Part shown: positions 1 through 11,050 of the stretch, one piece after another
Layout of the letters: every line of letters begins with the position of its first letter
Numbering within the stretch: position 1 is the first letter of the stretch
DNA from: Paraphysomonas bandaiensis
Taxonomy: Eukaryota; Protista; Chrysophyceae
Reading direction: 5' to 3'
NCBI GenBank assembly: GCA_965644295.1
Contig: CBFFRP010000509.1
Location: forward strand, 1-11,050
DNA length: 11,050 bases
Notes under the pieces: generated by a model
Seen by the model: only the letters and a program-made list of their open reading frames with translations
What the model was told of the DNA's origin: nothing
Database searches by the model: none
Made by a program: the position numbers and the translations under genes

Positions 1-51
1 GAGTTGGAGTATGAGCTCCGTCGCTTCTCTTCATTCCTCTTCATTCCATTA

Positions 52-181
52 TGTACTGCGTACTTACGTACTTCCACACTGTCCATAGGTACGATCATGT
101 AGGTACATGTACGGTTACACATTGTACATAGGTACGATGATGCGTGCATACGTACGATGGTATCAGTTACACGTACGATGG
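52..181. repeat. GTAC-dense degenerate repeat region
   Basis: Ten GTAC palindromes in about 125 bp. Longer units cataggtacgat x2 (85-96, 127-138) and acgtacgatgg x2 (150-160, 171-181). Confidence 0.7.
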
Positions 182-342
182 TTGAGTTTGTGTTTAGATA
201 GTTCATTCTACATCTCACTTAATTATACTATATATAATTATGTTCGATTGCTTCCTCTCGCTAGCACATCACTTGTTGACTATATACTATATATTATTTT
301 TTAAATATTTAATTTTTTAATTTTTTAATTATTTATTTTGTG

Positions 343-407
343 AGAAATACAGGAGTTTTACGTATGGTTTCTTTCATTTTGAAAGAAATACAGGAGTTAA
401 CGTATGG
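343..407. repeat. ~25 bp direct repeat (agaaatacaggagtt..acgtatgg x2) enclosing a 9-bp-stem hairpin at 368-388
   Basis: Copies at 343-367 and 384-407. Hairpin TTTCTTTCA-ttt-TGAAAGAAA. It lies immediately downstream of the stop codon at 409. Confidence 0.8.
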
Positions 408-408
408 A

Positions 409-741
409 TCATGTCGTAGACATGAACACCGTTATATCAATAAATTCAAACTTCTCAAATTTCTCAGTATTCTTGACTGAGCTTTTATAATAGTCATCAA
501 AATCCTGAACGTTTAGTTGGTAACTAGTATACCCTTTAAATGTAAAGTATCTATGACCATTTAACGCTCTAACCATTATATTGGCATCTTCTGGTAAGTT
601 TTCCTCAACCATATTATATAAAAAGTGCATATCAGGAACGTCTAATTCTTTACCTTTTTTTCTGTGTCTGAATCTGGTCGTAATTTCAACTGAGTTTTTA
701 AAGTCCTTCTCATCAATCTTATAAAACTTATATTTGTCCAT
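409..741 (-). CDS. Hypothetical viral protein (110 aa)
   Basis: Intact ORF with AT-rich codon usage like its neighbours. The shared motif TTTAAAAAATTAATATATAGTATATATTA lies directly before the ATG. No recognisable domain. Confidence 0.75.
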   Translation of the reverse strand: MDKYKFYKIDEKDFKNSVEITTRFRHRKKGKELDVPDMHFLYNMVEENLPEDANIMVRALNGHRYFTFKGYTSYQLNVQDFDDYYKSSVKNTEKFEKFEFIDITVFMSTT

Positions 742-772
742 TAATATATACTATATATTAATTTTTTAAATA
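742..772 (-). promoter_or_regulatory. Representative copy of the shared AT-rich upstream motif (AAAAAAT..ATATATA..TATAT..ATG)
   Basis: Related copies lie directly 5' of the ATGs at 741, 1028, 2622, 5943 and 6455. Variants precede 4059, 4548, 5310/5316 and 5485. One orphan copy is at 281-306. Confidence 0.7.
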
Positions 773-773
773 A

Positions 774-1028
774 TTAAATTTTTATTTTTTTAATATCATA
801 ATTATTTATATTATTAATATCATAAATTTTTATTCTGTTAATCAGTCGCTTTAATGATGGATGTAAGTATTTACATGTTGTACGTGACTCACATAAAGCG
901 TTAAGTTTCCTAGCTTCTGAATATTGTATATCGTATTCCTGTGCTATTGCTTTATAGGATGTAAAGTGTTGTGATGTAATCAGATTATTATTATTATCAT
1001 ATATTTCTACTATAAATTTATCTCTCAT
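774..1028 (-). CDS. Small putative DNA-binding protein (NUMOD1/IENR1-like HTH)
   Basis: IVEIYDNNNNLITSQHFTSYKAIAQEYDI resembles the NUMOD1 pattern (V.vyd..g.li..F.S...aa..l.i). The shared upstream motif is present. The domain call is by eye. Confidence 0.6.
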   Translation of the reverse strand: MRDKFIVEIYDNNNNLITSQHFTSYKAIAQEYDIQYSEARKLNALCESRTTCKYLHPSLKRLINRIKIYDINNINNYDIKKIKI

Positions 1029-1077
1029 TAATATATATTTATATATTAATTTTTTAAATAAATTATTTTTTATTTTT

Positions 1078-2622
1078 TTAAATATTTATTCCGTAAGTTT
1101 TCATTATATCTTTCACTGTCTTCTGACTTACACGGGGTGTTTCATCTTCATCTTCATCTGTATCTTCATCTGTATCATCATCTGCTGTATCTTCATCTGT
1201 TTTATCGCTTTTTTTATTACACTGATCACTGTGTTTATCACTTTGATTACTAATCTTTTTAATAGCGCTTGTAACAGTATTTGTATTGCAACGTTTTTTA
1301 ATTGTATCTTTAATATTATATTCTACATCGGGGCCATCATCATATTCATCTAATTCATGAACCCAATGTAAAGATTCAGAAACTTTATTTAATTCGTCTA
1401 ATGTAACATTGTACACATTACGCCTATCTTTATTCTTTTTGTGAATAAAATTTAATTCACTCATGACCTTATTAAAATCAATTGTATGTTTAACTGGTTT
1501 AATATTATTTTGAGTACAATACTGGATATAATGGTTAAATATTTCTTTAACAAGTATATTATTTATATCCAATCTCTTTAATACAAATTCATCCTTTAAA
1601 AACATTTCAACGCTTCCTAATCTCTTTGCGTATGCGTCTAACTTGTTTTTTGTGATGGGAAAATTTTGACTATAAAATTTTTCTGTGTTGTATTCCATTA
1701 AATAACAGTAAAAAGCATGTCCAACCTCGTTATTAAAGCATAGATTACGTAGCCATCCAAAATATTTTAAGTCATTACGTTTTTTACAACAAACATCACA
1801 AATAAAATACCTTCTTCCGCATTCCTCATTTAAACTATAATTTGCATTAATTAAATAATTATTAATATTTGCAGCCTGATATGTTGCCTCATGCTTTTGA
1901 TTTATTATATAAACGTCGCTCGTCGTATATCGTTTTAATTTGGTATTGATTGCGTCCCAATCAGCCCTGCTTTGTTTTTCCAGTTCTTCAAAATATACAA
2001 ATAATTTACCTCCTAGATCTGAATTAAATTTAGATGTCAATACGTCCGCGCCAGCCTCTAAACACAGGTCACGGCCAAGTACGTAAGTAGTCATAAATGT
2101 ACTTATAGTAGACTTACCAATACCCTGAGGACCTTTTAGGAAAATGATAGATTCGTTTTTATTACCCTTTGTCATGTTTGCAAACCACTTTAATAAATAT
2201 TCATATTGCGCCTGATCATTGGATGCCAATATTTCTTTAATATATGATAAAAACGCCTGTACACCTTCCTTACTCTTATCATCAAAATCTTCATATGGTT
2301 TATAGTCATGTGCAAACTGAGCGGCTAAATTTAGTTTCTTTTTATCAGGGAATATACCTTTACCTAATTCATAAACCATTTTACGAAGCCCTTTAAATTC
2401 AGTGAAATAATATTTTGCTATCCGTTTATCCATTCTGTTAAAATACGTTTCTTTAACTTTTTTGTGTTCCATAATGCTAAATTTTTTATGTCCTGTTCTA
2501 AGTGCATGTGCGCCGTTTGTAAGTGGGAAAAAATAATTTGTTACGTAAGTTTTTGACTGTTCATAAGTCAGGTTATCAAGGTGTTCTAAATCAAACTCTT
2601 CAAAACTCTCTTTTGTACTCAT
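1078..2622 (-). CDS. Superfamily 3 (D5-like) DNA helicase/NTPase, 514 aa
   Basis: Walker A IFLKGPQGIGKST, Walker B LFVYFEE, motif C NYLINAN and arginine finger RRYFI. The helical segment YEYLLKWFA before Walker A is typical of D5-like helicases. Acidic low-complexity tail. No AEP primase motifs seen in the N-terminus. Confidence 0.9.
   Translation of the reverse strand: MSTKESFEEFDLEHLDNLTYEQSKTYVTNYFFPLTNGAHALRTGHKKFSIMEHKKVKETYFNRMDKRIAKYYFTEFKGLRKMVYELGKGIFPDKKKLNLAAQFAHDYKPYEDFDDKSKEGVQAFLSYIKEILASNDQAQYEYLLKWFANMTKGNKNESIIFLKGPQGIGKSTISTFMTTYVLGRDLCLEAGADVLTSKFNSDLGGKLFVYFEELEKQSRADWDAINTKLKRYTTSDVYIINQKHEATYQAANINNYLINANYSLNEECGRRYFICDVCCKKRNDLKYFGWLRNLCFNNEVGHAFYCYLMEYNTEKFYSQNFPITKNKLDAYAKRLGSVEMFLKDEFVLKRLDINNILVKEIFNHYIQYCTQNNIKPVKHTIDFNKVMSELNFIHKKNKDRRNVYNVTLDELNKVSESLHWVHELDEYDDGPDVEYNIKDTIKKRCNTNTVTSAIKKISNQSDKHSDQCNKKSDKTDEDTADDDTDEDTDEDEDETPRVSQKTVKDIMKTYGINI
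1141..1200. repeat. Degenerate short tandem repeat (atcttcatctgt-like) encoding the acidic tail TDEDTADDDTDEDTDEDEDE
   Basis: Repeated ttcatc / atc(t/a)tcatctg units read directly from the sequence. Confidence 0.7.
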
Positions 2623-2705
2623 TAATATACAAATATATATTATTTTTTAAATAATAAATTTTTTAATTTTTTATTTTTTTAAAAATCTAAAGGTTTTTTA
2701 TAAAT

Positions 2706-4059
2706 TTAATATTGCAATGTTGCGAAACCGTTTTCAATCAAAATGACTTGATCAAAATAAGCGTATGTGTCTATGCGTGCGGTCACAGTGGGGGCACTTG
2801 AGGAAAAACGAGGCATAAAAAATATATCGTCAGTGCTAGAATTATAACCCTGGTATACTGTTTCCATACCTGCTGCTGCTGTAACTTTCTAGATCTAAAC
2901 CCAAGTAAAAGTTTGAAGATGTTGAACGACCCGTCATAATCGGCTGCTGTCTCGGTATTAGCATGCTGACGCTTGCATATCATAAGTATTTATATTAATG
3001 CTTGGTTCATGATTCAAATCGCTTACGCTTCCAATTGCTCTGATCAATTCGCCGAAAAATTCAGGAAGGCAACTAGGTGCTTTAGTTGGTACGGTCTTAC
3101 TACCTAATCTAACACTGTATGACTCTAGACCGAAATGATTTGATGACAGACGGGAAATAGGTGACTTCTCCAGCGTGTTTATCGCGCATACTGAAAAATA
3201 GAGATCTTAAAGAGTTATATTTAGCGGGTACGGGAACACTAAGTTCAACGTTGGCGGCAATATTTCCAGTATGTGAATAATTTCTGTAATCTTGTACAAC
3301 CCACCTTAAAGGTCCATTTGATGCCAAATTAATTTTATTCATTGCGTCATCTGATAACTCCATAAAATTACAAACATATTCAACGTCATTAATAGCTATT
3401 GATGTTATGGCTTTATTGCAACAAATGCCCTCTAATGGATTATTAACCAGAACTATTTCTAGACGTAAAGGCGCGCCGGTCATTGCAAACAGTGGAATAT
3501 ATTTATCACTGTAGCTTAAAAAATTCATTATTGGTACTGTATAATATCGTTTAGTTGTACTGCCCCCATCTGCAACTTGTGTGAATTCATTAAGTCTTTC
3601 ACCAACAATTAAACCCTCGTTTGTGTTTGTGGCGGTGTCAATAAGGCTGAAACATTCCGTTCCTGATAAAATTGTGTGTTTGTTAATAAAAGAGTCGTTG
3701 GACTGTTGCAAAGTCATTAACTGACCAACTAGATTATTATAATTCTGAATATCTGAAAGTAAAGTAGAGCCATGAAATACTCGCACTCTAGAAATTAGGG
3801 AATGAATACCGGCCTTATCCAGTCTGACGTATTCTGAAACCGCCGTGGTTGTTGCTGTGTTTACTATTAAGCTTAATTTTAAAAGTGAATCAGCACCCGA
3901 CATTACGAGATTACGACCGGTAGGAACATTAATAATTATGGTCTCTCCTGCACCATATGGTCCCAAACCATTTTGTGGAGCTATATTATTCTGATAATTA
4001 CGCGCATAACTTGAATTTATATTATTTGTGTATAATACGTTTTTTGGTAATCCTGACAT
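2706..4059 (-). CDS. Major capsid protein (PLV-type double jelly roll), about 449 aa after correcting 3-4 single-base frameshifts
   Basis: ORF 3109..4059 has PLV MCP-like motifs (LPKNVLY, PQNG, SLISRVRVFHGSTLLSDIQNYN, KYIPLFAM..PLRLEIVL, INDVEY). Manual translation continues in shifted frames: LSSNHFGLESYSVRLGSKTVPTKAP..EFFGELIRAIG (after ~3150), NFYLGLDLESY (~2910-2880), then GMETVYQGYNSSTDDIFF...IDTYAYFDQVILIENGFATLQY* ending at TAA 2708-2706. Confidence 0.85.
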
Positions 4060-4090
4060 ATATACTATAAATAGATAAATATTTTTTATA
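4060..4090 (-). promoter_or_regulatory. Candidate late promoter of MCP (AT-flanked TCTA, 12 nt before the ATG)
   Basis: The minus strand reads AAAAAATATTTA-TCTA-TTTATAGTATAT-ATG, which resembles the CroV late / mavirus promoter element. Confidence 0.45.
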
Positions 4091-4107
4091 GTATAATAAA
4101 ATATAAT

Positions 4108-4548
4108 TTATATAAATGTGCTGTCATCTTGTGTTAACTTAGCCAAAGCTTTTCTTGTGTTGTGTTTTTCTAGTTTATTACCTGCATTATGAGCTTTATG
4201 AAATGCTTTTTTACTGTGTTTGTCGGCTTTATTGTGTAGCTTATGTAGCTTATGTACTCCTTTATGTCCTTCGTGTAATCCTGCTTCCAATAGTCTAGAT
4301 GCTGATCCAACAACGGGCATTGTATTTAATCCTGCTTTATTAATAGCGTGTATAGTTTTATCGCCGACGCCTAATATTTTATCTGCTACGTCAATTGCCT
4401 TTGCTGATTTATCAAGTCCTTTATTTACTCCATGTTGGACCTTGTCTAATACGTCGTGTGTTTTTTGTCCTAGTTTATGTATTCTGTGATCGGCCTTACG
4501 ACCTAGTTTACGAAATTTACGATTTAGCTTTTTGCCTAGTTTTGACAT
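4108..4548 (-). CDS. His/Lys-rich basic helical protein (candidate virion core or membrane-penetration protein), 146 aa
   Basis: Intact ORF between the penton-like and MCP genes, with the upstream motif. KLG(K/R/Q)K recurs three times at 11-aa spacing and the C-terminal third is H/K-rich. The function is inference. Confidence 0.7.
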   Translation of the reverse strand: MSKLGKKLNRKFRKLGRKADHRIHKLGQKTHDVLDKVQHGVNKGLDKSAKAIDVADKILGVGDKTIHAINKAGLNTMPVVGSASRLLEAGLHEGHKGVHKLHKLHNKADKHSKKAFHKAHNAGNKLEKHNTRKALAKLTQDDSTFI

Positions 4549-4578
4549 GTATATATACTATATTGAGAGAAATATTTT

Positions 4579-5316
4579 TTATTCAATAGTTAATAATAAA
4601 TTTAAAGACCAATGTAAACCGTTTAATTCCAATACATCTGCGTCTTGGTCTAATAATTGGACATGTAAAGTATTTATATTATGTATATCATGTACTAAGC
4701 TCTTAATATTATTAATATTTTTATAATTAATAATAGATCCTGCATTAACATCAACAGGTACAGAGGTAATAATAGAGGCTTTATTAGGTGTGGCACTATT
4801 TATATTATTTAAAACAAAATTTGACGATGCTATTAAAACGTTTCTTACTGTAAATAAATTTATACCAATTGTTGATAATAATGTTAATGAATCTGAATAA
4901 TAGGTAGTATTATCTTCAAATCCCAATAATTCAAAACAGGTTGAAGTATTTGAAAAAGAAAAATCATAAGTACTATGGGTAAATTGTAATTTATTAGTTG
5001 ATGAGTTATAATTTATTGTAAATCCTGGCTCTAAATTGGACTGTAAATAACTTATTAAAGTTCTAATATTATAATTGGCTTTTGTAATTGTAAGTGAATA
5101 TGGGATACTATTTAATGTATAATTCAGTGTGTTATTAGTTGAATTAACATTATAAAAAGAGTATGGGATAGAGGCGTCAATTACTGATATATAGGCTTTA
5201 TGACGTCGTTTAACGTCTATCTTCGGTAATATAAAAATACAATCAGTAGTTTTATTATTTAGGTATTGATTAGCTGTCTTGCTGTTTAGAACAATCTGTA
5301 TTTTCTCCATTAACAT
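4579..5316 (-). CDS. Minor capsid (penton)-like single jelly-roll protein, 243-245 aa
   Basis: Beta-rich pattern typical of PLV minor capsids: IQIVLNS, ISVIDASIPYSFYNVNSTNN, ITKANY, LLGF, and C-terminal LHVQLLDQDADVLELNGLHWSLNLLL. It lies close to the MCP gene. The start may be the second ATG at 5310. Confidence 0.8.
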   Translation of the reverse strand: MLMEKIQIVLNSKTANQYLNNKTTDCIFILPKIDVKRRHKAYISVIDASIPYSFYNVNSTNNTLNYTLNSIPYSLTITKANYNIRTLISYLQSNLEPGFTINYNSSTNKLQFTHSTYDFSFSNTSTCFELLGFEDNTTYYSDSLTLLSTIGINLFTVRNVLIASSNFVLNNINSATPNKASIITSVPVDVNAGSIINYKNINNIKSLVHDIHNINTLHVQLLDQDADVLELNGLHWSLNLLLTIE

Positions 5317-5485
5317 TATCAGATATATTTATATTTGCAAAATCATAAGTCAACATGTCTGTATCTATATTATTATTTCTGTTTAATTTTGGTGTGTCTA
5401 AGTTAATTACTTTGTCTAAGTCTATAACATTTTTCTTTGGAAATTCATAATTATCATAGTCTATTTCCCATTCTAGGCCGTCCAT
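5270..5485 (-). CDS. Small acidic hypothetical protein (71 aa, MDGLEWEIDY...)
   Basis: The ATG at 5485 follows an AT-rich motif-like leader, so it is preferred over the track's GTG start at 5500. The 3' end overlaps the penton start by about 47 nt. Confidence 0.5.
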   Translation of the reverse strand: MDGLEWEIDYDNYEFPKKNVIDLDKVINLDTPKLNRNNNIDTDMLTYDFANINISDNVNGENTDCSKQQDS

Positions 5486-5601
5486 ATATAAGTATATCAC
5501 ATAATATATTTATATATTTTACATCTAAGGGATAATTTCGCGAACAATTATCGCGTTTTTATCTACCTTATCAGTTTATCATTGCATTTTTATACATTTT
5601 G

Positions 5602-5690
5602 TTTCCATCCTACAGAATCCTGCGATATTTTATATCTAGGATAATTTAGATTTTATCCTTATTTCCATCCTACAGAATCACTGCGATATT
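5602..5690. repeat. 28-29 bp direct repeat tttccatcctacagaatc(a)ctgcgatatt x2
   Basis: Copies at 5602-5629 and 5662-5690. The second copy encodes the C-terminus of ORF 5659..5943. Confidence 0.85.
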
Positions 5691-5943
5691 CACCGTGTAG
5701 AAAATCATATTTTCTTAATAATTCAGTCCTTTTATCTTCGTCTTTATTTTCATATATGATTAATTGCCGTTCATTTAATAGCTCTACTTGTAACTCTTTC
5801 TTTTGTTTCTGAAGTTCTGATAATGTAATTTTCATGTCTTCTATTTCTCTATCTAAATTTCTTATCTCTTCCTGAATTTTAGGCATATGCGTTTTTCTAA
5901 TACTGTATACTTCACCTTTCAACTTTAATAAATACTCACTCAT
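5659..5943 (-). CDS. Hypothetical coiled-coil protein (94 aa)
   Basis: Heptad pattern IQEEIRNLDREIEDMKITLSELQKQKKELQVEL. The upstream motif lies directly before the ATG. Confidence 0.75.
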   Translation of the reverse strand: MSEYLLKLKGEVYSIRKTHMPKIQEEIRNLDREIEDMKITLSELQKQKKELQVELLNERQLIIYENKDEDKRTELLRKYDFLHGEYRSDSVGWK

Positions 5944-6022
5944 TATAATATATAACTATATATTTTTTTTTAATTATTTTATATTTTTACATATGTAATA
6001 ATTGAAATAAATTATAGTATTT

Positions 6023-6455
6023 TTAATGCGTTAGTTTATCAATAATATTCATTGAATATACCCACTTATCCGTTTCCATTTTCTCTTTATCGCCGTCATT
6101 TTCAATGATATAAACAACTGATTCCCAAAACTTATTTTTAAGATAAAATTCATCTTGAACATCATCACCTTCGTTTTCTCTTAAACCTGATTTAATAATA
6201 AATTTTTCATGCCAATCGTAACATTCAGGTGTATTGTTTACTGGTCTAAAAGTAAAAAAATTGCTACTTAAAACACCCTTATTCAAACCGTTTGCTTATT
6301 ATATCATTGACTTCATCAGCTGGCCTATTTAACTTATGTTTTAGACAGTCAAATGGATCATTATGAATGTACTTTTTATGTTTGTAGTAGTATTTACCAT
6401 TACGCTCGGAATCAACATTTTCACAACAACTAAAATATTTTAATTCTTTTGACAT
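6023..6455 (-). CDS. Hypothetical protein (~143 aa) split by one +1 frameshift at ~6291
   Basis: The ATG at 6455 follows the shared motif and reads MSKELKYFSCCENVDSERNGKYYYKHKKYIHNDPFDCLKHKLNRPADEVNDIIS, stopping at 6281-6279. Removing one A from AGC-AAA-C joins it to NGLNKGVLSSNFF... (the TTG-started ORF 6023..6286). Confidence 0.65.
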
Positions 6456-6741
6456 TATAATATAACTATATATTTTTTTATTATTTTATATTCTTATATA
6501 TGTAAAACAGGGAGTAAAATCACGGCATGTCTATATATAGTGTTAAACAGGTCTGTTGTTCCGTCTATCTGTTGTAATTGTTCGGTGTTTAAGTCAGGGT
6601 TGGTCTATCGTTTGGTTAATAGGGTCGGTTGATCGCTGGGGTTAATATGTATAGTATTATTTTATTTTGATTGCATTTTTTTTGACACTTTTTTTAGAAA
6701 TATATTATATACAAACTTTTTTTGTTAAATAATATTTTTTT

Positions 6742-6874
6742 TAATAAAAAATGTTGTAAAAAATGTAGGGTATACTGTTGCAATATTTACTATAATAACA
6801 TTTTTTATTACATTTTTTATTGTGAATAGGTAAACAGCATTTTAGATGTAACAAAAATGTAATAAAAATGTAAT
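6742..6874. repeat. Subterminal array of ~12 bp aataaaaaatgt-like units in alternating orientation
   Basis: Forward pair at 6743-6766, inverted pair at 6799-6821 and forward pair at 6850-6871. Confidence 0.65.
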
Positions 6875-6967
6875 GTATAATATTGGAAGCACTTGTACGT
6901 GATAAAGAGTAATACCATAGGGGCAAGGGTTGGTGTATATTAATAGTTTGCATGGTCACGGTTAACA

Positions 6968-8839
6968 CTATACAGGGGGTGAAATCCCCCTCTCCTCTCT
7001 CTTTTTTTTTACGGCTTTAGCCATGTCGAGTCCGTGTTTGGTTTTCGCCCGGTTTCTTCCTATGCTGAAGGATTTGTCCCATGTCAGTGCTGCATTTAGT
7101 ACTCTTTGGCGCAGGTGGGAGCTCACTTTGTCCTTTGATGGTCCACCATCTGCTTGCGCCAGTTTGCGCGGAAGTAGTGCTCCGCTGTCTTTCCAGTATC
7201 CAGGAGCCCGGTCGGGATTGTGACCGTAGCGTTGGTCTCGGAGAGCTGTATATGCCTCCAGCGTCCGTTGATTACGGAGGGATTGGAAATCCGTGAGCAG
7301 GGGGCTAGTGCGATACGGCCGTCGTTCCCCAGTTAGGCGCCAGTGCCATAAACCCTCGGTGAGTATTCTCTCGATGGCTTGGTCCACTTCCATGTTACAG
7401 ACAGTGTAGTTTTGTCGTCCGAGTAGTCGATCTACCTCAAGCCAGTCCCCTCCTGCTACTGCGTCGGCAATGTAAATTCCTTTGTCTTCATATGTCCATT
7501 CAGACTCATCAGAGGTGCGTCGTTCGGGGTGTGATCGGACCCAGGCTACTGTCCTTGTGCAATCGTTATTTGCTGCAATGCTTTCGAGCAGTACACCTTT
7601 GGCACGATGCCCCAGTGCCCGACGTCTGGCGGAGAGTGCTTCGTGTGTGCGTATGCAGACGGCCTTACAGTCCGTATTTATCGGTATGTGTGATGGGAGT
7701 CGCGCAGACAGTATAAGCGCCATTGCTGCTCCCATGAGCTCGTATGCATACGGGCCAAGTCCAGGCACGTCGCTGAAGGGTGTCTCTAATCGCAGTATTT
7801 TTGTTGTACCGTTCTTCCATTCATCCTCCGGGGGGAGCCAGACTGCCGCCGCTCCTCCATAATGTGCCCATCTTGTACGTGGGTTTACATGCGTAATGCG
7901 GCGCGGGGATAGGGCTGTAGGCGTGTATGAGCCGTCGGTGAAGATTGCCTGATATGTATCCGCGGTTACATTATCCAGTTCTAATGTGCGGATAATGTTG
8001 GTCAGGGTGTTGGTATCTTGAGGTTCCGGACTGTCGGGTTGTTGGAGAGTAAGGCCAACCTCCGTACCCCATTCCCGCAGACTTAAGGCAAAGTGGTGGT
8101 AGTTTGGGTACGGCGCGATAGTCTGTGTTAGGAGAAAGTGCGCTGCGTCACCGGCATCACCGCCTAGGATTATGGCGCGCTGTAGGGAGCCCCATTTTTG
8201 TTCTTGAGCGGAGTCTGAGAAGCGTTTCATTCCAAGTCCATTATGCCTGAGAGAGAGGTAGATCATTTCCGTGGGGTAACCAGGACTCAGGCTTAGTGCT
8301 TTCCTGTAAAGGTTTGCGCACGTTGAATCGATGTTCTTGTAATATTGCAGGGGCCAAGAAGCCTTGGTGGCCTTGTAAAGTAGAGTGGGTATGATTTGGG
8401 TCTCTATAACCATGACTTTGCAACCCGCTGAGGCGTGCCTGATCCCAAGGTGTGTGCCCGCTGCCTTTAGGTAGTTTGTACACCAATTGTATGAGTCCGT
8501 GTCTGTAGGTGTTAGTGGTAGATCCGCCCCCAAATAGTGTATCGATTCATGAGTCGTTTGTATTGGTACAGGTTGGGGTCTCCAATACCAGTCATATAAG
8601 GTAATGTGTCCGGTTTGTTTGACCTGGGCTAGATTTTCCCGTAGGTGAGGGAAAAAAGTGCAGATAACCTTAGGTACCGAGAGTTCCATTCCCGAGAAGC
8701 TGCAGAACGCCGACATTCGTATCGCCGTTTCCTGGGCTTGAGTGATAGACACATCTATGGTGGTGATGTCATCCGCGAAGGAGACTTTTTCTTTGAGTTC
8801 GGGGTCAGTAGGAGTGGTGATGGTGTAAGACAGATTGCT
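6968..8839 (-). CDS. LINE polyprotein segment 3: RT catalytic FADD and thumb plus RNase H
   Basis: The frame is open from 8839: ...KVSFADDITTIDVSITQ (FADD at 8779-8768). It has KV, HYLG and GLG, then RNase H motifs IFTDGSY, YELMG, NTDCK, WVRSH and IADAVA. The last ~13 aa (KKKREERGISPPV*) are read through the A tract into the viral terminus. Confidence 0.9.
   Translation of the reverse strand, partial: SNLSYTITTPTDPELKEKVSFADDITTIDVSITQAQETAIRMSAFCSFSGMELSVPKVICTFFPHLRENLAQVKQTGHITLYDWYWRPQPVPIQTTHESIHYLGADLPLTPTDTDSYNWCTNYLKAAGTHLGIRHASAGCKVMVIETQIIPTLLYKATKASWPLQYYKNIDSTCANLYRKALSLSPGYPTEMIYLSLRHNGLGMKRFSDSAQEQKWGSLQRAIILGGDAGDAAHFLLTQTIAPYPNYHHFALSLREWGTEVGLTLQQPDSPEPQDTNTLTNIIRTLELDNVTADTYQAIFTDGSYTPTALSPRRITHVNPRTRWAHYGGAAAVWLPPEDEWKNGTTKILRLETPFSDVPGLGPYAYELMGAAMALILSARLPSHIPINTDCKAVCIRTHEALSARRRALGHRAKGVLLESIAANNDCTRTVAWVRSHPERRTSDESEWTYEDKGIYIADAVAGGDWLEVDRLLGRQNYTVCNMEVDQAIERILTEGLWHWRLTGERRPYRTSPLLTDFQSLRNQRTLEAYTALRDQRYGHNPDRAPGYWKDSGALLPRKLAQADGGPSKDKVSSHLRQRVLNAALTWDKSFSIGRNRAKTKHGLDMAKAVKKKREERGISPPV
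6974..7002. other. Putative viral right terminus: AGGGGG-TGAAAT-CCCCCT hairpin followed by CTCCTCTCTCT
   Basis: A 6-bp stem at 6974-6991, then a CT run ending at 7002, then the T tract and the composition break. Confidence 0.55.
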
Positions 8840-9612
8840 CTAAGATCTAGGTCTAACCATGTAAGAAGGATATCGTGTAGCGCCACCCAGGCACAAGTGG
8901 ATTCGGTTCCCCCCTGTGTGATTCCTCTCACGGCCTCAAATCCGAGTACGAACTGTGCAAGGAAGTGTCCGTCGGTAGCTAGAAGTTCTGCCAACGAGCG
9001 TGGCTCCATGTTGTTCGCCATGAACGGCGTCCATGGGAATGTGAGACCCCCAGCGTCTAATTCTCCAAACCATTCAACCACAGCATCGGGGACACCTAGC
9101 CGAGCCCATGCAAGTTTCATTAGATTAGGTGTTATGGAGTCGAATGCTTTTTTGAAGTCCCAGAGCGTGCAGATGTGTTGGGCATTGTGACGTCTGGCTG
9201 CCTCTGAGGCCGCTAGAACCCTTAAAATGGCCGTGTCTGTGCCATTTCTCCAGCGATATCCATGTTGGGACGGGTGTAGGATCTGCTGTTCCTCCCAGAC
9301 TGTGAGTATCCTGTGGGAGATTATTCTTGTCAGAATTTTCCGTGATATTTCGAGCAGACCGATCGGTCGAAGGTTGGAAAAAGAGGGTTCTCCTGGTTTC
9401 TTGAGTATGGGGGTCATTACTCTGTCTCTCCACCAAGTAGGCACGTGTTTGTGCTTCCAGAGCGACTTGATAAGGGTGAATGCTTCCTGTTGTATGGCTG
9501 GAGGCCAGGATTTGACCATGTTGGATGAGACCATGGAGGGTCCGGGAGCCCGGTTGAAGGATATGGAATGTAGGGTGGAGTAGAATTCTTCGTGCGTGAT
9601 GTCCTTCTCTAA
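8755..9612 (-). CDS. LINE polyprotein segment 2: reverse transcriptase N-terminal/palm motifs
   Basis: DITHEEF..RAPGPS, WW...MTPILKKPG, LRPIGLLEISRKIL, QHGYR, WDFKKAFDSI, GVP and RGITQGGTES. The frame shifts between ~8842 and 8782, so the last ~25 aa of the track's ORF may be out of frame. Confidence 0.92.
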   Translation of the reverse strand, partial: LEKDITHEEFYSTLHSISFNRAPGPSMVSSNMVKSWPPAIQQEAFTLIKSLWKHKHVPTWWRDRVMTPILKKPGEPSFSNLRPIGLLEISRKILTRIISHRILTVWEEQQILHPSQHGYRWRNGTDTAILRVLAASEAARRHNAQHICTLWDFKKAFDSITPNLMKLAWARLGVPDAVVEWFGELDAGGLTFPWTPFMANNMEPRSLAELLATDGHFLAQFVLGFEAVRGITQGGTESTCAWVALHDILLTWLDLDLRAICLTPSPLLLTPNSKKKSPSRMTSPP

Positions 9613-11048
9613 AAAGCCTTTCCGAGTAGGTCCGCCATTTCTGGTTTAACTTTAGTGCATAGTGCACGTCGTAGTCCGTGTTGTAGGGTAAGGGGTATGT
9701 GCGAGCACGGATGGAGGGGCTCCTGGGAAGTCACCGATTGAGGGTCAAGGAGGGTTTTCCACCAGTTGGGGTCGTCCTGTAGTCTTTGTGCGACTGGGTC
9801 CAGTCCTGCAGGTTCCGCGTGGTGGTCTCGAAAGTGTTTGTTGATTCCTTCGTGGATGTCTTGCGGGGTAGTGAGAAGTGTCCCGTCAGTAGTTCTCACT
9901 GTCGTTAGTCGAAGTGGCGTTTTGATTTTGAGTCCTATCTTCTGCAGTACTGCTTGTAGTCTTCTCTGTTCTAGTAATGCTTCCATTTGGTTTGTACGGT
10001 CTGTGAGCCTCTTGCGCATCTCCGTCCTGTCTCGTCCGTGCAAGAGTCCTCGCATTCGAATCACAATGTGTAGAAGGTTCTTCTTGGTGACTTGTTTGGC
10101 AGTCCAGCTCAGAATGGCTCTGGGGTCTGCTGATCGGTAATCATTCCTGAAGTTGATGTCGGCTATTCCTTTCGCAGGTCCCGTGGAGTTTTGGAGGTAC
10201 GAGTTCCCGCGCTCCTGCCAGGCGGTGATGAGCGCGTGGATCGGAGTGCGTAATGGGGATCCACGCCATCCGTGTCTTTTATATCCAGCTGAGTTAAACA
10301 TTTTCTGAACTATCTTTATTACCATAACCATCCCTTCTTGAATTACCCTCATTTCCGGGGAGAAACCATCTTTAAAATGTGAACGAATTCGCTGACACCG
10401 GTCATGGAGCCTCGTGCGACGGCTGTAGCGGGGACCCTTTGCTGTAAGCGTTGCCTGCAAGGTGATGTGATGTATCGCCGCTAGTCGGGTGGCTGCAGTC
10501 TCTGGGTCTAGTGTTGGGCTGAGGTTCGTGTCTATAGGGGGCAGTTGGGCGTGTAGCATGAGAAGTTTGGCAGTGTACGCTTTTACCTCCTCAGGATCCC
10601 TTGGGTTGATGTTTAGGCGAGGAGGTATTTTTAAGTGTGACTCTGGGGAAGAGATATCTTGTGTTACAGTAATATTGAATCCAACCCAAACCGGCCTATG
10701 GTCAAACGCTGCTGCAATTAAGGTGGGGGAATTGAGGCATCCGGTGTCAGTGATTCGCATATGCTGTGGAAGTGGCGTATGTAGTATGTGATCGATACGC
10801 GAGATTCCCTTGTCCAATCTGTGGAATGTGTGAAAAGCTTGCCGTTGGAGTAATTGTGTGATTAGTGGCGCCGACAGCTGGAGTTTACCGGCTAGTGGGC
10901 GTATATCTCTATTCGTGGTGTGCGTTTCCATGGATCCGTTAAAGTCGCCTGCAATGATTACCGTGTGACCTCTGGCCCGGGCCTTGGTAACCCATTTAGT
11001 GATGATGTTGCAGAGGAGATCATATGGGGCAACCGGTTTAGTGTTGCG
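9609..11048 (-). CDS. LINE polyprotein segment 1: APE (exo/endo/phosphatase) endonuclease C-terminal half plus linker; open to the window edge
   Basis: The frame is open upstream of the track's Met: ...GHTVIIAGDFNGSMET (GDFN at 10949-10938). It continues through HTF, SRIDHI and FDHRPV. The TAG at 9611-9609 is caused by a frameshift in a T5 run. Confidence 0.9.
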   Translation of the reverse strand, partial: RNTKPVAPYDLLCNIITKWVTKARARGHTVIIAGDFNGSMETHTTNRDIRPLAGKLQLSAPLITQLLQRQAFHTFHRLDKGISRIDHILHTPLPQHMRITDTGCLNSPTLIAAAFDHRPVWVGFNITVTQDISSPESHLKIPPRLNINPRDPEEVKAYTAKLLMLHAQLPPIDTNLSPTLDPETAATRLAAIHHITLQATLTAKGPRYSRRTRLHDRCQRIRSHFKDGFSPEMRVIQEGMVMVIKIVQKMFNSAGYKRHGWRGSPLRTPIHALITAWQERGNSYLQNSTGPAKGIADINFRNDYRSADPRAILSWTAKQVTKKNLLHIVIRMRGLLHGRDRTEMRKRLTDRTNQMEALLEQRRLQAVLQKIGLKIKTPLRLTTVRTTDGTLLTTPQDIHEGINKHFRDHHAEPAGLDPVAQRLQDDPNWWKTLLDPQSVTSQEPLHPCSHIPLTLQHGLRRALCTKVKPEMADLLGKAF

Positions 11049-11050
11049 GG

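What the first reader, a model, noticed from the sequence alone, without database searches (positions are those of the whole stretch)
6960..7060. LINE fused through an A9 tract to the apparent terminus of a Polinton-like virus
Seen: on the minus strand the LINE ORF runs ...DMAKAV into A9 and then directly into GAGAGAGGAGAGGGGGATTTCACCCCCT, which looks like a viral terminus. There is no LINE stop codon, no 3' UTR and no C-terminal Cys/His zinc knuckle of the kind many APE-type elements carry after RT/RNase H. Three models are inferred. (a) The virus integrated into an A-rich site inside a LINE, and the rest of the LINE is at the far viral end. (b) The LINE RT primed on the 3'-OH of the linear viral end; the polarity fits, since the + strand ...CTCT would be extended as T9 and then LINE cDNA. 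That would make retrotransposition a route to endogenisation. (c) A co-oriented LINE-virus chimera moves by read-through or 3' transduction. Retroelement-virophage nesting is known for Ngaro tyrosine-recombinase retrotransposons in Cafeteria mavirus-like elements. I do not know of an APE-RT-RNase H LINE joined at a PLV terminus.
Basis: partly seen in the sequence, partly recalled or inferred. Interest (0 to 1): 0.85.

Follow-up and report, generated by a model that had tools for sequence, protein, structure and literature searches.

The report
Polinton-like virus cutting a young LINE
A small DNA virus of the Polinton-like kind sits directly against a jumping gene (LINE) that breaks off just before its zinc knuckle, most likely because the virus inserted into it in a marine protist's genome, a kind of nesting that is already described.

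Summary
The junction is in the window as described: LINE, A9, then an (AG)4-led end of an AT-rich Polinton-like virus. The LINE is cut. In 6 of 8 relatives reaching this point, a CCHC knuckle starts 0-3 residues later and 237-291 residues follow. One sister copy in a metagenome runs straight into the knuckle codons with no A tract, so the A run is probably not an A-rich target inside the LINE. Best reading (0.55): the virus integrated into a young LINE copy, and the A8 came with the viral end or the joining reaction; 9 of 18 related viral contigs carry a tyrosine recombinase. Rivals: poly(A) tail of a prematurely polyadenylated LINE (0.22), artefact or rearrangement (0.15), RT priming on a free viral end (0.05), mobile chimera (0.02). 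No independent read or contig was shown to bridge the junction, and neither the far viral end nor other flanks could be seen. PLVs nested in LINE-rich loci are published for Halocafeteria. A new member of a known kind; interest 0.25.

The parts
7011..11050 (-). Young APE-RT-RNase H LINE copy, cut at 7011 just before the CCHC knuckle; runs off the window at its 5' side
   Evidence: 72-83% aa identity to the 3114-aa ORF P0123 over its residues 1508-2847; 9 other letters and 3 gaps over 8280-11050 against one metagenome contig
9609..11048 (-). APE C-terminal half and linker (first frame)
   Evidence: PF03372 E 0.0012, below cutoff; sister P0123 E 2.6e-9
8755..9645 (-). Reverse transcriptase core (second frame)
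   Evidence: PF00078 E 2.2e-10
7013..8788 (-). RT end, thumb and RNase H (third frame), ending at the knuckle boundary
   Evidence: R2 hits E 3.5e-4; model pLDDT 79.8 with RNase H fold hits; knuckle follows in 6 of 8 relatives
7003..7010 (-). A8 spacer (A9 counting the A that would begin the viral end); at most one A can be LINE-templated if Val-Cys follows as in the sister copy
   Evidence: origin inferred
6995..7002 (-). (AG)4, likely first bases of the viral end
   Evidence: sequence; (AG)3 end motif of Mavericks (PMC8097293)
6893..7002 (-). Outer terminal segment of about 110 bp, likely a TIR; includes a 6-bp hairpin at 6974-6991 and the TAG at 6968-6970 that closes the LINE frame
   Evidence: covered in 4 of 4 runs; one contig in run X13 diverges into other AT-rich sequence at 6893; hairpin not above shuffles
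4582..5316 (-). DUF5901 protein, likely minor capsid protein (role recalled)
   Evidence: PF19254 E 2.8e-7; homologue in 17 of 18 related viral loci
4111..4548 (-). Basic K/H-rich small ORF between the two capsid genes
   Evidence: no Pfam hit above cutoff
2709..4059 (-). Major capsid protein, with at least three frame changes in its last third
   Evidence: 113 homologues, best 94%; PF16903 in P0004 and P0005; alignment to P0003
1081..2622 (-). D5-like superfamily 3 helicase
   Evidence: PF19263 E 8.4e-15, weak Pox_D5

Best explanation
An AT-rich Polinton-like virus likely integrated into a recently inserted LINE copy and cut it one codon before its zinc knuckle, with the short A run probably brought by the viral end or added in the joining reaction. 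Shown: the LINE stops at that point, its relatives continue with the knuckle and 237-291 more residues, one sister copy has no A run there, and the adjoining DNA is a PLV. Inferred: the order of events, that (AG)4 is the terminus, and that a tyrosine recombinase, as in many relatives, left a donor-derived or terminal A spacer rather than a classic 6-bp duplication. The missing LINE 3' part (about 270 codons plus UTR) would lie beyond the far viral end. The cut LINE copy would be dead, and the virus would move by its own integrase.
For: The knuckle starts 0-3 residues after the break in 6 of 8 relatives reaching it; the 2 others are short proteins ending 27 and 16 residues later. All 10 listed P0116-cluster proteins covering the site read LTKAACSDC. 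A sister copy in run X3 reads LT*AVCSDCG with no A run. The break falls at an arbitrary codon on the LINE side but exactly at an (AG)n motif on the viral side, as expected if the virus is the inserted unit. An OLV11-like tyrosine recombinase is in 9 of 18 IMG/VR loci with this capsid, the L003-type RVE in 1 of 18 (counts include the two query loci; many loci are partial). Few YR-encoding PLVs have TSD-like flanks (10 of 232 in cluster C1), and those are longer than RVE-type TSDs and often offset from the TIR (PMC12220804 section 10). Tn916 carries a donor-derived coupling sequence (PMC12084037 passage; analogy only). Viruses nested in LINE loci are described. Both halves occur in the same runs: shares of 0.61-0.72 of a stretch that is half LINE, half virus in 14 runs, and both sides are covered in 4 of 4 runs laid.
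Against: No integrase or ATPase gene is in the window, so the chemistry is borrowed from relatives only 32-43% identical in the capsid. No viral end with an A tract was seen: the terminal motif had 0 hits in 4 of 4 collection scans, and the TIRs of L003 and L004 do not start with A runs or (AG)n. An A run on the sense strand at a LINE 3' break is also the textbook mark of premature polyadenylation (PMC4859970). Tn916-like enzymes want A/T tracts in the target, which this LINE site lacks. The junction is unbridged, and the window carries several indels that look like long-read error. The no-A-run evidence at DNA level is one diverged contig.
Confidence: 0.55

Rival explanations
1. The A run is the poly(A) tail of a LINE transcript that was polyadenylated early and retrotransposed. 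Either it landed by ordinary TPRT at the pyrimidine-rich end of an already integrated virus, or the virus later integrated into that tail (a 6-bp duplication would then be AAAAAA).
For: The A run is on the sense strand and not templated in the sister copy. 3'-truncation by premature polyadenylation is known for L1 and SVA (PMC4859970 passage). The + strand next to the run is a polypyrimidine tract.
Against: It needs two uncommon events. There is no AATAAA in the 70 nt upstream. The tail is only 8-9 nt. No second copy ending here was seen, though the tool skipped this place.
Confidence: 0.22
2. The junction is a chimera from amplified or error-prone long-read DNA, or a deletion or rearrangement that joined a LINE copy to the A-rich flank of a virus inserted elsewhere.
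For: No bridging record was shown. The window has two LINE frameshifts that contigs of runs X3, X8 and X13 lack and at least three frame changes in the capsid gene. Capsid frameshifts in PLV assemblies are often artefacts (PMC10120064 passage).
Against: A random join would rarely fall within 8 nt of an end-like motif (inference). The LINE has no A run to seed a misjoin. Both elements occur in the same runs.
Confidence: 0.15
3. LINE reverse transcriptase primed on the 3'-OH of a free linear viral end, using a prematurely polyadenylated RNA, and so tied the virus into the chromosome without its integrase.
For: The polarity fits. The join is at the apparent last base of the virus. Endonuclease-independent L1 insertion at breaks and dysfunctional telomeres is known and gives 3'-truncated copies (PMC4859970 passage).
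Against: It needs an early-terminated RNA and more than 4 kb of uninterrupted cDNA from a viral end. Relatives carry their own integrases. One case only, unbridged.
Confidence: 0.05
4. LINE and virus form one co-oriented unit that moves by read-through or 3' transduction.
For: All viral genes in the window and the LINE are on the same strand.
Against: The copy lacks its knuckle and 3' UTR. LINE 3' depth exceeds viral-end depth 2-8 fold in 4 of 4 runs (weak), and a different viral interior shares the same end. No second joined copy was found.
Confidence: 0.02

Closest known systems
Endogenous PLVs and virophages nested in LINE- and MULE-rich loci of Halocafeteria seosinensis (bioRxiv 10.64898/2026.07.28.741278; sections 7 and 8 read, supplements closed)
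   Same: Low-GC virus abutting a LINE in a heterotrophic stramenopile-type genome; D5-type helicase; short palindrome at the end of the TIR
   Different: There the PLVs use RVE integrases with TSDs and larger palindromes (52 nt in one subtype); no A spacer is described in the sections read
EMALEs and Ngaro retrotransposons of Cafeteria burkhardae (PMC8547959; passages)
   Same: Virus and retroelement nested; virus inserts without sequence specificity, often in coding DNA or near repeats
   Different: There the retroelement is a YR retrotransposon inside a mavirus-type virophage; here an APE LINE is cut at a PLV end
YR-encoding PLVs of cryptophytes and chrysophytes (PMC12220804; section 10 and passages)
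   Same: PLV with TIRs and mostly no classic TSD; nested retroelements are common
   Different: Group assignment of this capsid was not tested against their clusters; the integrase of this copy is outside the window
Maverick/Polinton ends 5'-(AG)3//(CT)3-3' (PMC8097293; passage)
   Same: (AG)n at the apparent end
   Different: Mavericks have pPolB, RVE, protease and a 6-bp TSD; none is seen in the window
3'-truncated L1 insertions (premature polyadenylation, internal priming, endonuclease-independent; PMC4859970, passages)
   Same: LINE ending early in an A run
   Different: Described for mammalian L1; no TSD or target site could be checked here

Membership tests
Polinton-like virus | Double jelly-roll major capsid protein | tested here: met
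   113 homologues, PF16903 in relatives at 63-64% identity; the window's own fragment has no Pfam hit; fold not modelled
Polinton-like virus | Minor capsid protein | tested here: met
   DUF5901 protein, homologue in 17 of 18 related viral loci; its role as minor capsid is recalled
Polinton-like virus | A32-like packaging ATPase | tested here: inconclusive
   Not in the window's 7 kb; present in the two relatives scanned, L002 and L003; the element probably runs off the window
Polinton-like virus | Integrase (YR or RVE) | tested here: inconclusive
   None in the window; YR in 9 of 18 and RVE in 1 of 18 related loci
Polinton-like virus | Paired TIRs with or without TSD | not testable with these tools
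   Only one end is in the window and no genome is held; shared outer ~110 bp seen in one contig
APE-type LINE | APE endonuclease and RT in one polyprotein | tested here: met
   Window in three frames; intact single ORF of 3114 aa in the sister family
APE-type LINE | RNase H after RT | tested here: met
   Conserved acidic and His residues; weak but consistent Foldseek hits; Pfam gives no hit
APE-type LINE | C-terminal CCHC knuckle and natural 3' end | tested here: not met
   Absent from this copy; present in 6 of 8 relatives at the break
TPRT-made insertion at this junction | Non-templated poly(A) tail | tested here: inconclusive
   A8-9 is not templated in one sister copy but could be viral or filler
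TPRT-made insertion at this junction | Target-site duplication around the LINE | not testable with these tools
   The LINE 5' end lies more than 4.5 kb beyond the window
Dualen/RandI or Ambal clade (recalled leads) | RT phylogeny and a C-terminal restriction-like endonuclease | not tested
   No reference sequences fetched; only a search listing was seen

The most novel reading that the evidence does not exclude
A LINE reverse transcriptase captured the free end of a linear Polinton-like virus genome, priming on its 3'-OH with a prematurely polyadenylated RNA, so that retrotransposition rather than the viral integrase endogenised the virus.
Probability: 0.05. Interest if true: 0.8.

Novelty: new member of a known kind. 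Interest (0 to 1): 0.25.

Why it matters
Under the best reading this is one more nested insertion in a virus-rich protist genome. Its modest use is that the known LINE sequence gives an exact pre-insertion site, so the far end would reveal what a PLV of this capsid group leaves at its junctions (A spacer, coupling sequence or duplication), which is poorly described for YR-type PLVs. If the RT-capture model held, it would be an integrase-independent route for DNA viruses into protist genomes.

Tried and rejected
No genome is held for the window, so the far viral end, other flanks and other LINE copies could not be read. The terminal motif gave 0 exact hits in viral contigs, metagenome contigs and GTDB contigs. 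Locus searches found no relative for the window capsid, helicase, P0018, the capsid alignment in GTDB or the LINE alignment in metagenomes. Reads were laid only on 6885-11050 and only for 4 of 24 listed runs; the tool skipped the junction, so bridging is untested, not refuted. The 99-bp TIRs of L003 and L004 may be clipped by assembly (inference) and say nothing on real ends; the (AG)3 at one end of L018 resembles the intergenic motif at window 4565-4580 and was not counted as a terminus. Rejected: that the ORF ends naturally at TAG 6968 with a 3' UTR behind it (relatives continue with the knuckle); that the hairpin is unusually stable; that window 1-280 is the partner TIR (no inverted match). 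A PDB sequence search with the 26-row alignment missed RNase H. The protein Atlas gave nothing. Earlier findings by place, sequence and junction words were empty. Literature searches listed no paper on LINE priming at a PLV end; only listings and the papers named were seen, and bioRxiv supplements (Halocafeteria Fig. S5B) are closed and may show such junctions.

Full report
Observation. The window holds two elements on the minus strand. Bases 1-7001 are 29.6% GC and bases 7011-11050 are 51.4% GC. A T9 run at 7002-7010 separates them. The frame is not stopless: it continues as VKKKREERGISPPV to a TAG at 6968-6970 inside the viral end.

The left element is a Polinton-like virus. It has a capsid gene with 113 homologues, best 94%, two of which hit Capsid_N when scanned. 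It also has a DUF5901 protein shared with 17 of 18 related IMG/VR loci and an SF3 helicase. No ATPase or integrase lies in the window, so the element probably continues leftwards. Among the 18 related loci, 9 carry an OLV11-like tyrosine recombinase and 1 the L003-type RVE (counts include the two queries, many loci are partial, capsid identity is only 32-43%). If the last A of the run belongs to the virus, the end reads (AG)4, matching the (AG)3 end motif of Mavericks (PMC8097293, passage), and A8 remains outside. The outer part is covered in 4 of 4 runs laid, and one contig of run X13 leaves the window sequence at 6893 into other AT-rich DNA, as a shared TIR of about 110 bp would. The small hairpin is not more stable than shuffles.

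The right element is an APE-RT-RNase H LINE. RT is clear. RNase H rests on conserved D/E/D/H/D residues and on many weak Foldseek hits, none at E<=0.001. A sister family at 72-83% identity has one intact ORF of 3114 aa (P0123). The window copy is young: one 4,082-nt metagenome contig differs by 9 letters and 3 gaps over 8280-11050, and the two frameshifts near 8785 and 9611 are absent from contigs of X3, X8 and X13. With at least three frame changes in the capsid gene and no stop in the three aligned LINE segments, this looks like uncorrected long-read error, though recent decay is possible. A 44% relative comes from a Paraphysomonas transcriptome (P0131), and the named runs are marine, so the host is probably a marine chrysophyte-like protist (inference).

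The LINE is truncated. Of 152 relatives scanned, 8 align up to the break, and 6 of these start a CCHC knuckle 0-3 residues later and continue 237-291 residues; the other 2 are short proteins that end soon after. All 10 listed P0116-cluster proteins covering the site read LTKAACSDC; 5 others of the 15 listed do not cover it. A loose end in run X3 translates as LT*AVCSDCG. So the family has Ala-Val/Ala-Cys here and no A tract, and the window's LINE has no A or T run of 7 or more in 4,040 nt. The DNA-level evidence is one diverged contig.

Mechanism. The break is arbitrary for the LINE and exact for the virus, which points to the virus as the inserted unit. This needs one assumption, that the A8 comes with the viral end or the joining step. 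In cryptophyte PLVs only 10 of 232 YR-encoding elements of cluster C1 have TSD-like flanks, and these are longer than RVE-type TSDs and often offset (PMC12220804, section 10). Tn916 shows how a YR can carry donor-derived bases, although it wants A/T tracts in its target (PMC12084037, passages). I give this 0.55. A poly(A) tail from premature polyadenylation is the main rival (0.22); it is known for L1 and SVA (PMC4859970, passages) but needs a second rare event to meet the viral end. Artefact or rearrangement gets 0.15, since nothing bridges the junction: no genome is held, the terminal motif had 0 hits in 4 scans, and the read-laying tool skipped the junction. RT priming on a free viral end gets 0.05; its polarity argument fits a virus-borne A tract equally. 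A mobile chimera gets 0.02: the copy lacks knuckle and UTR, and depth at 7046 exceeds depth at 6928 by 8.2, 4.0, 3.1 and 2.2 fold in X1, X3, X8 and X13 (the tool warns that this is no copy number).

Comparison. PLVs and virophages inserted in LINE-rich loci, and terminal palindromes in elements without pPolB, are reported for Halocafeteria (bioRxiv 10.64898/2026.07.28.741278; passages and sections 7-8; supplements closed). EMALEs insert without sequence specificity, often in coding DNA or near repeats (PMC8547959, passages). Chrysophytes carry 33-104 capsid genes per genome, retrotransposons lie near insertions, and many stop codons are assembly artefacts (PMC10120064, passages). I read passages and section 6 of the PLV framework preprint (10.64898/2026.06.19.733378) but did not place this capsid in its groups. 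Passages of PMC9356565 and 10.1101/2023.08.22.554363 added nothing on ends. Searches listed no paper on LINE priming at a PLV end.

Verdict. The junction exists in the window and the LINE truncation is shown; the order of events is inferred. It is most likely an ordinary nested insertion, a new member of a known kind, interest 0.25. The far viral end would settle it.

Noticed in passing
P0123/P0127 residues 1185-1289 (upstream of the window's right edge): The sister LINE family has a single ORF of 3114/3111 aa with a SET domain (PF00856 E 1.3e-8) directly before the APE, and two G[FY]C motifs at residues 244 and 863 that recall cysteine proteases (label recalled). The window copy may have the same 5' part. 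None of 22 more distant relatives scanned hit SET; two paper searches listed no SET-bearing LINE by title. An earlier scan finding reports the same layout.
   Followed up: partly
P0170, P0202, P0206: 3 of 22 distant relatives scanned carry a Ulp1 protease (PF02902, E 1.2e-8 to 5.9e-19) after the knuckle at the C-terminus, so this LINE group appears to vary in accessory domains.
   Followed up: no
window 5273-6455: Between the viral end and the minor capsid gene there are only small ORFs, whereas several relatives have a 240-285-aa ORF there, an A32 ATPase in the ones scanned. ORFs 6026-6295 and 6282-6455 overlap and may be one gene split by a frame change.
   Followed up: partly
window 1-280: GC-richer, probably non-coding stretch with repeated GTACG motifs and a 42-nt direct repeat (72-113, 115-156); no inverted match to the right end. 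Could be an origin, an internal repeat or another element.
   Followed up: partly
window about 745-800, 1025-1080, 2620-2680, 4058-4109, 4551-4602, 5935-5990, 6453-6504: A recurring AT-rich motif precedes each viral start codon (families D2 and D7), likely a promoter or 5' UTR signal.
   Followed up: no
window 5590-5616 and 5660-5690: A short direct repeat containing TTTCCATCCTACAGAATC occurs twice, about 70 nt apart (read).
   Followed up: no
window 7024-11050: Summed contig depth is far higher in the LINE 3' bins than in its 5' bins in all 4 runs, the pattern expected from many 5'-truncated copies; a weak measure.
   Followed up: partly
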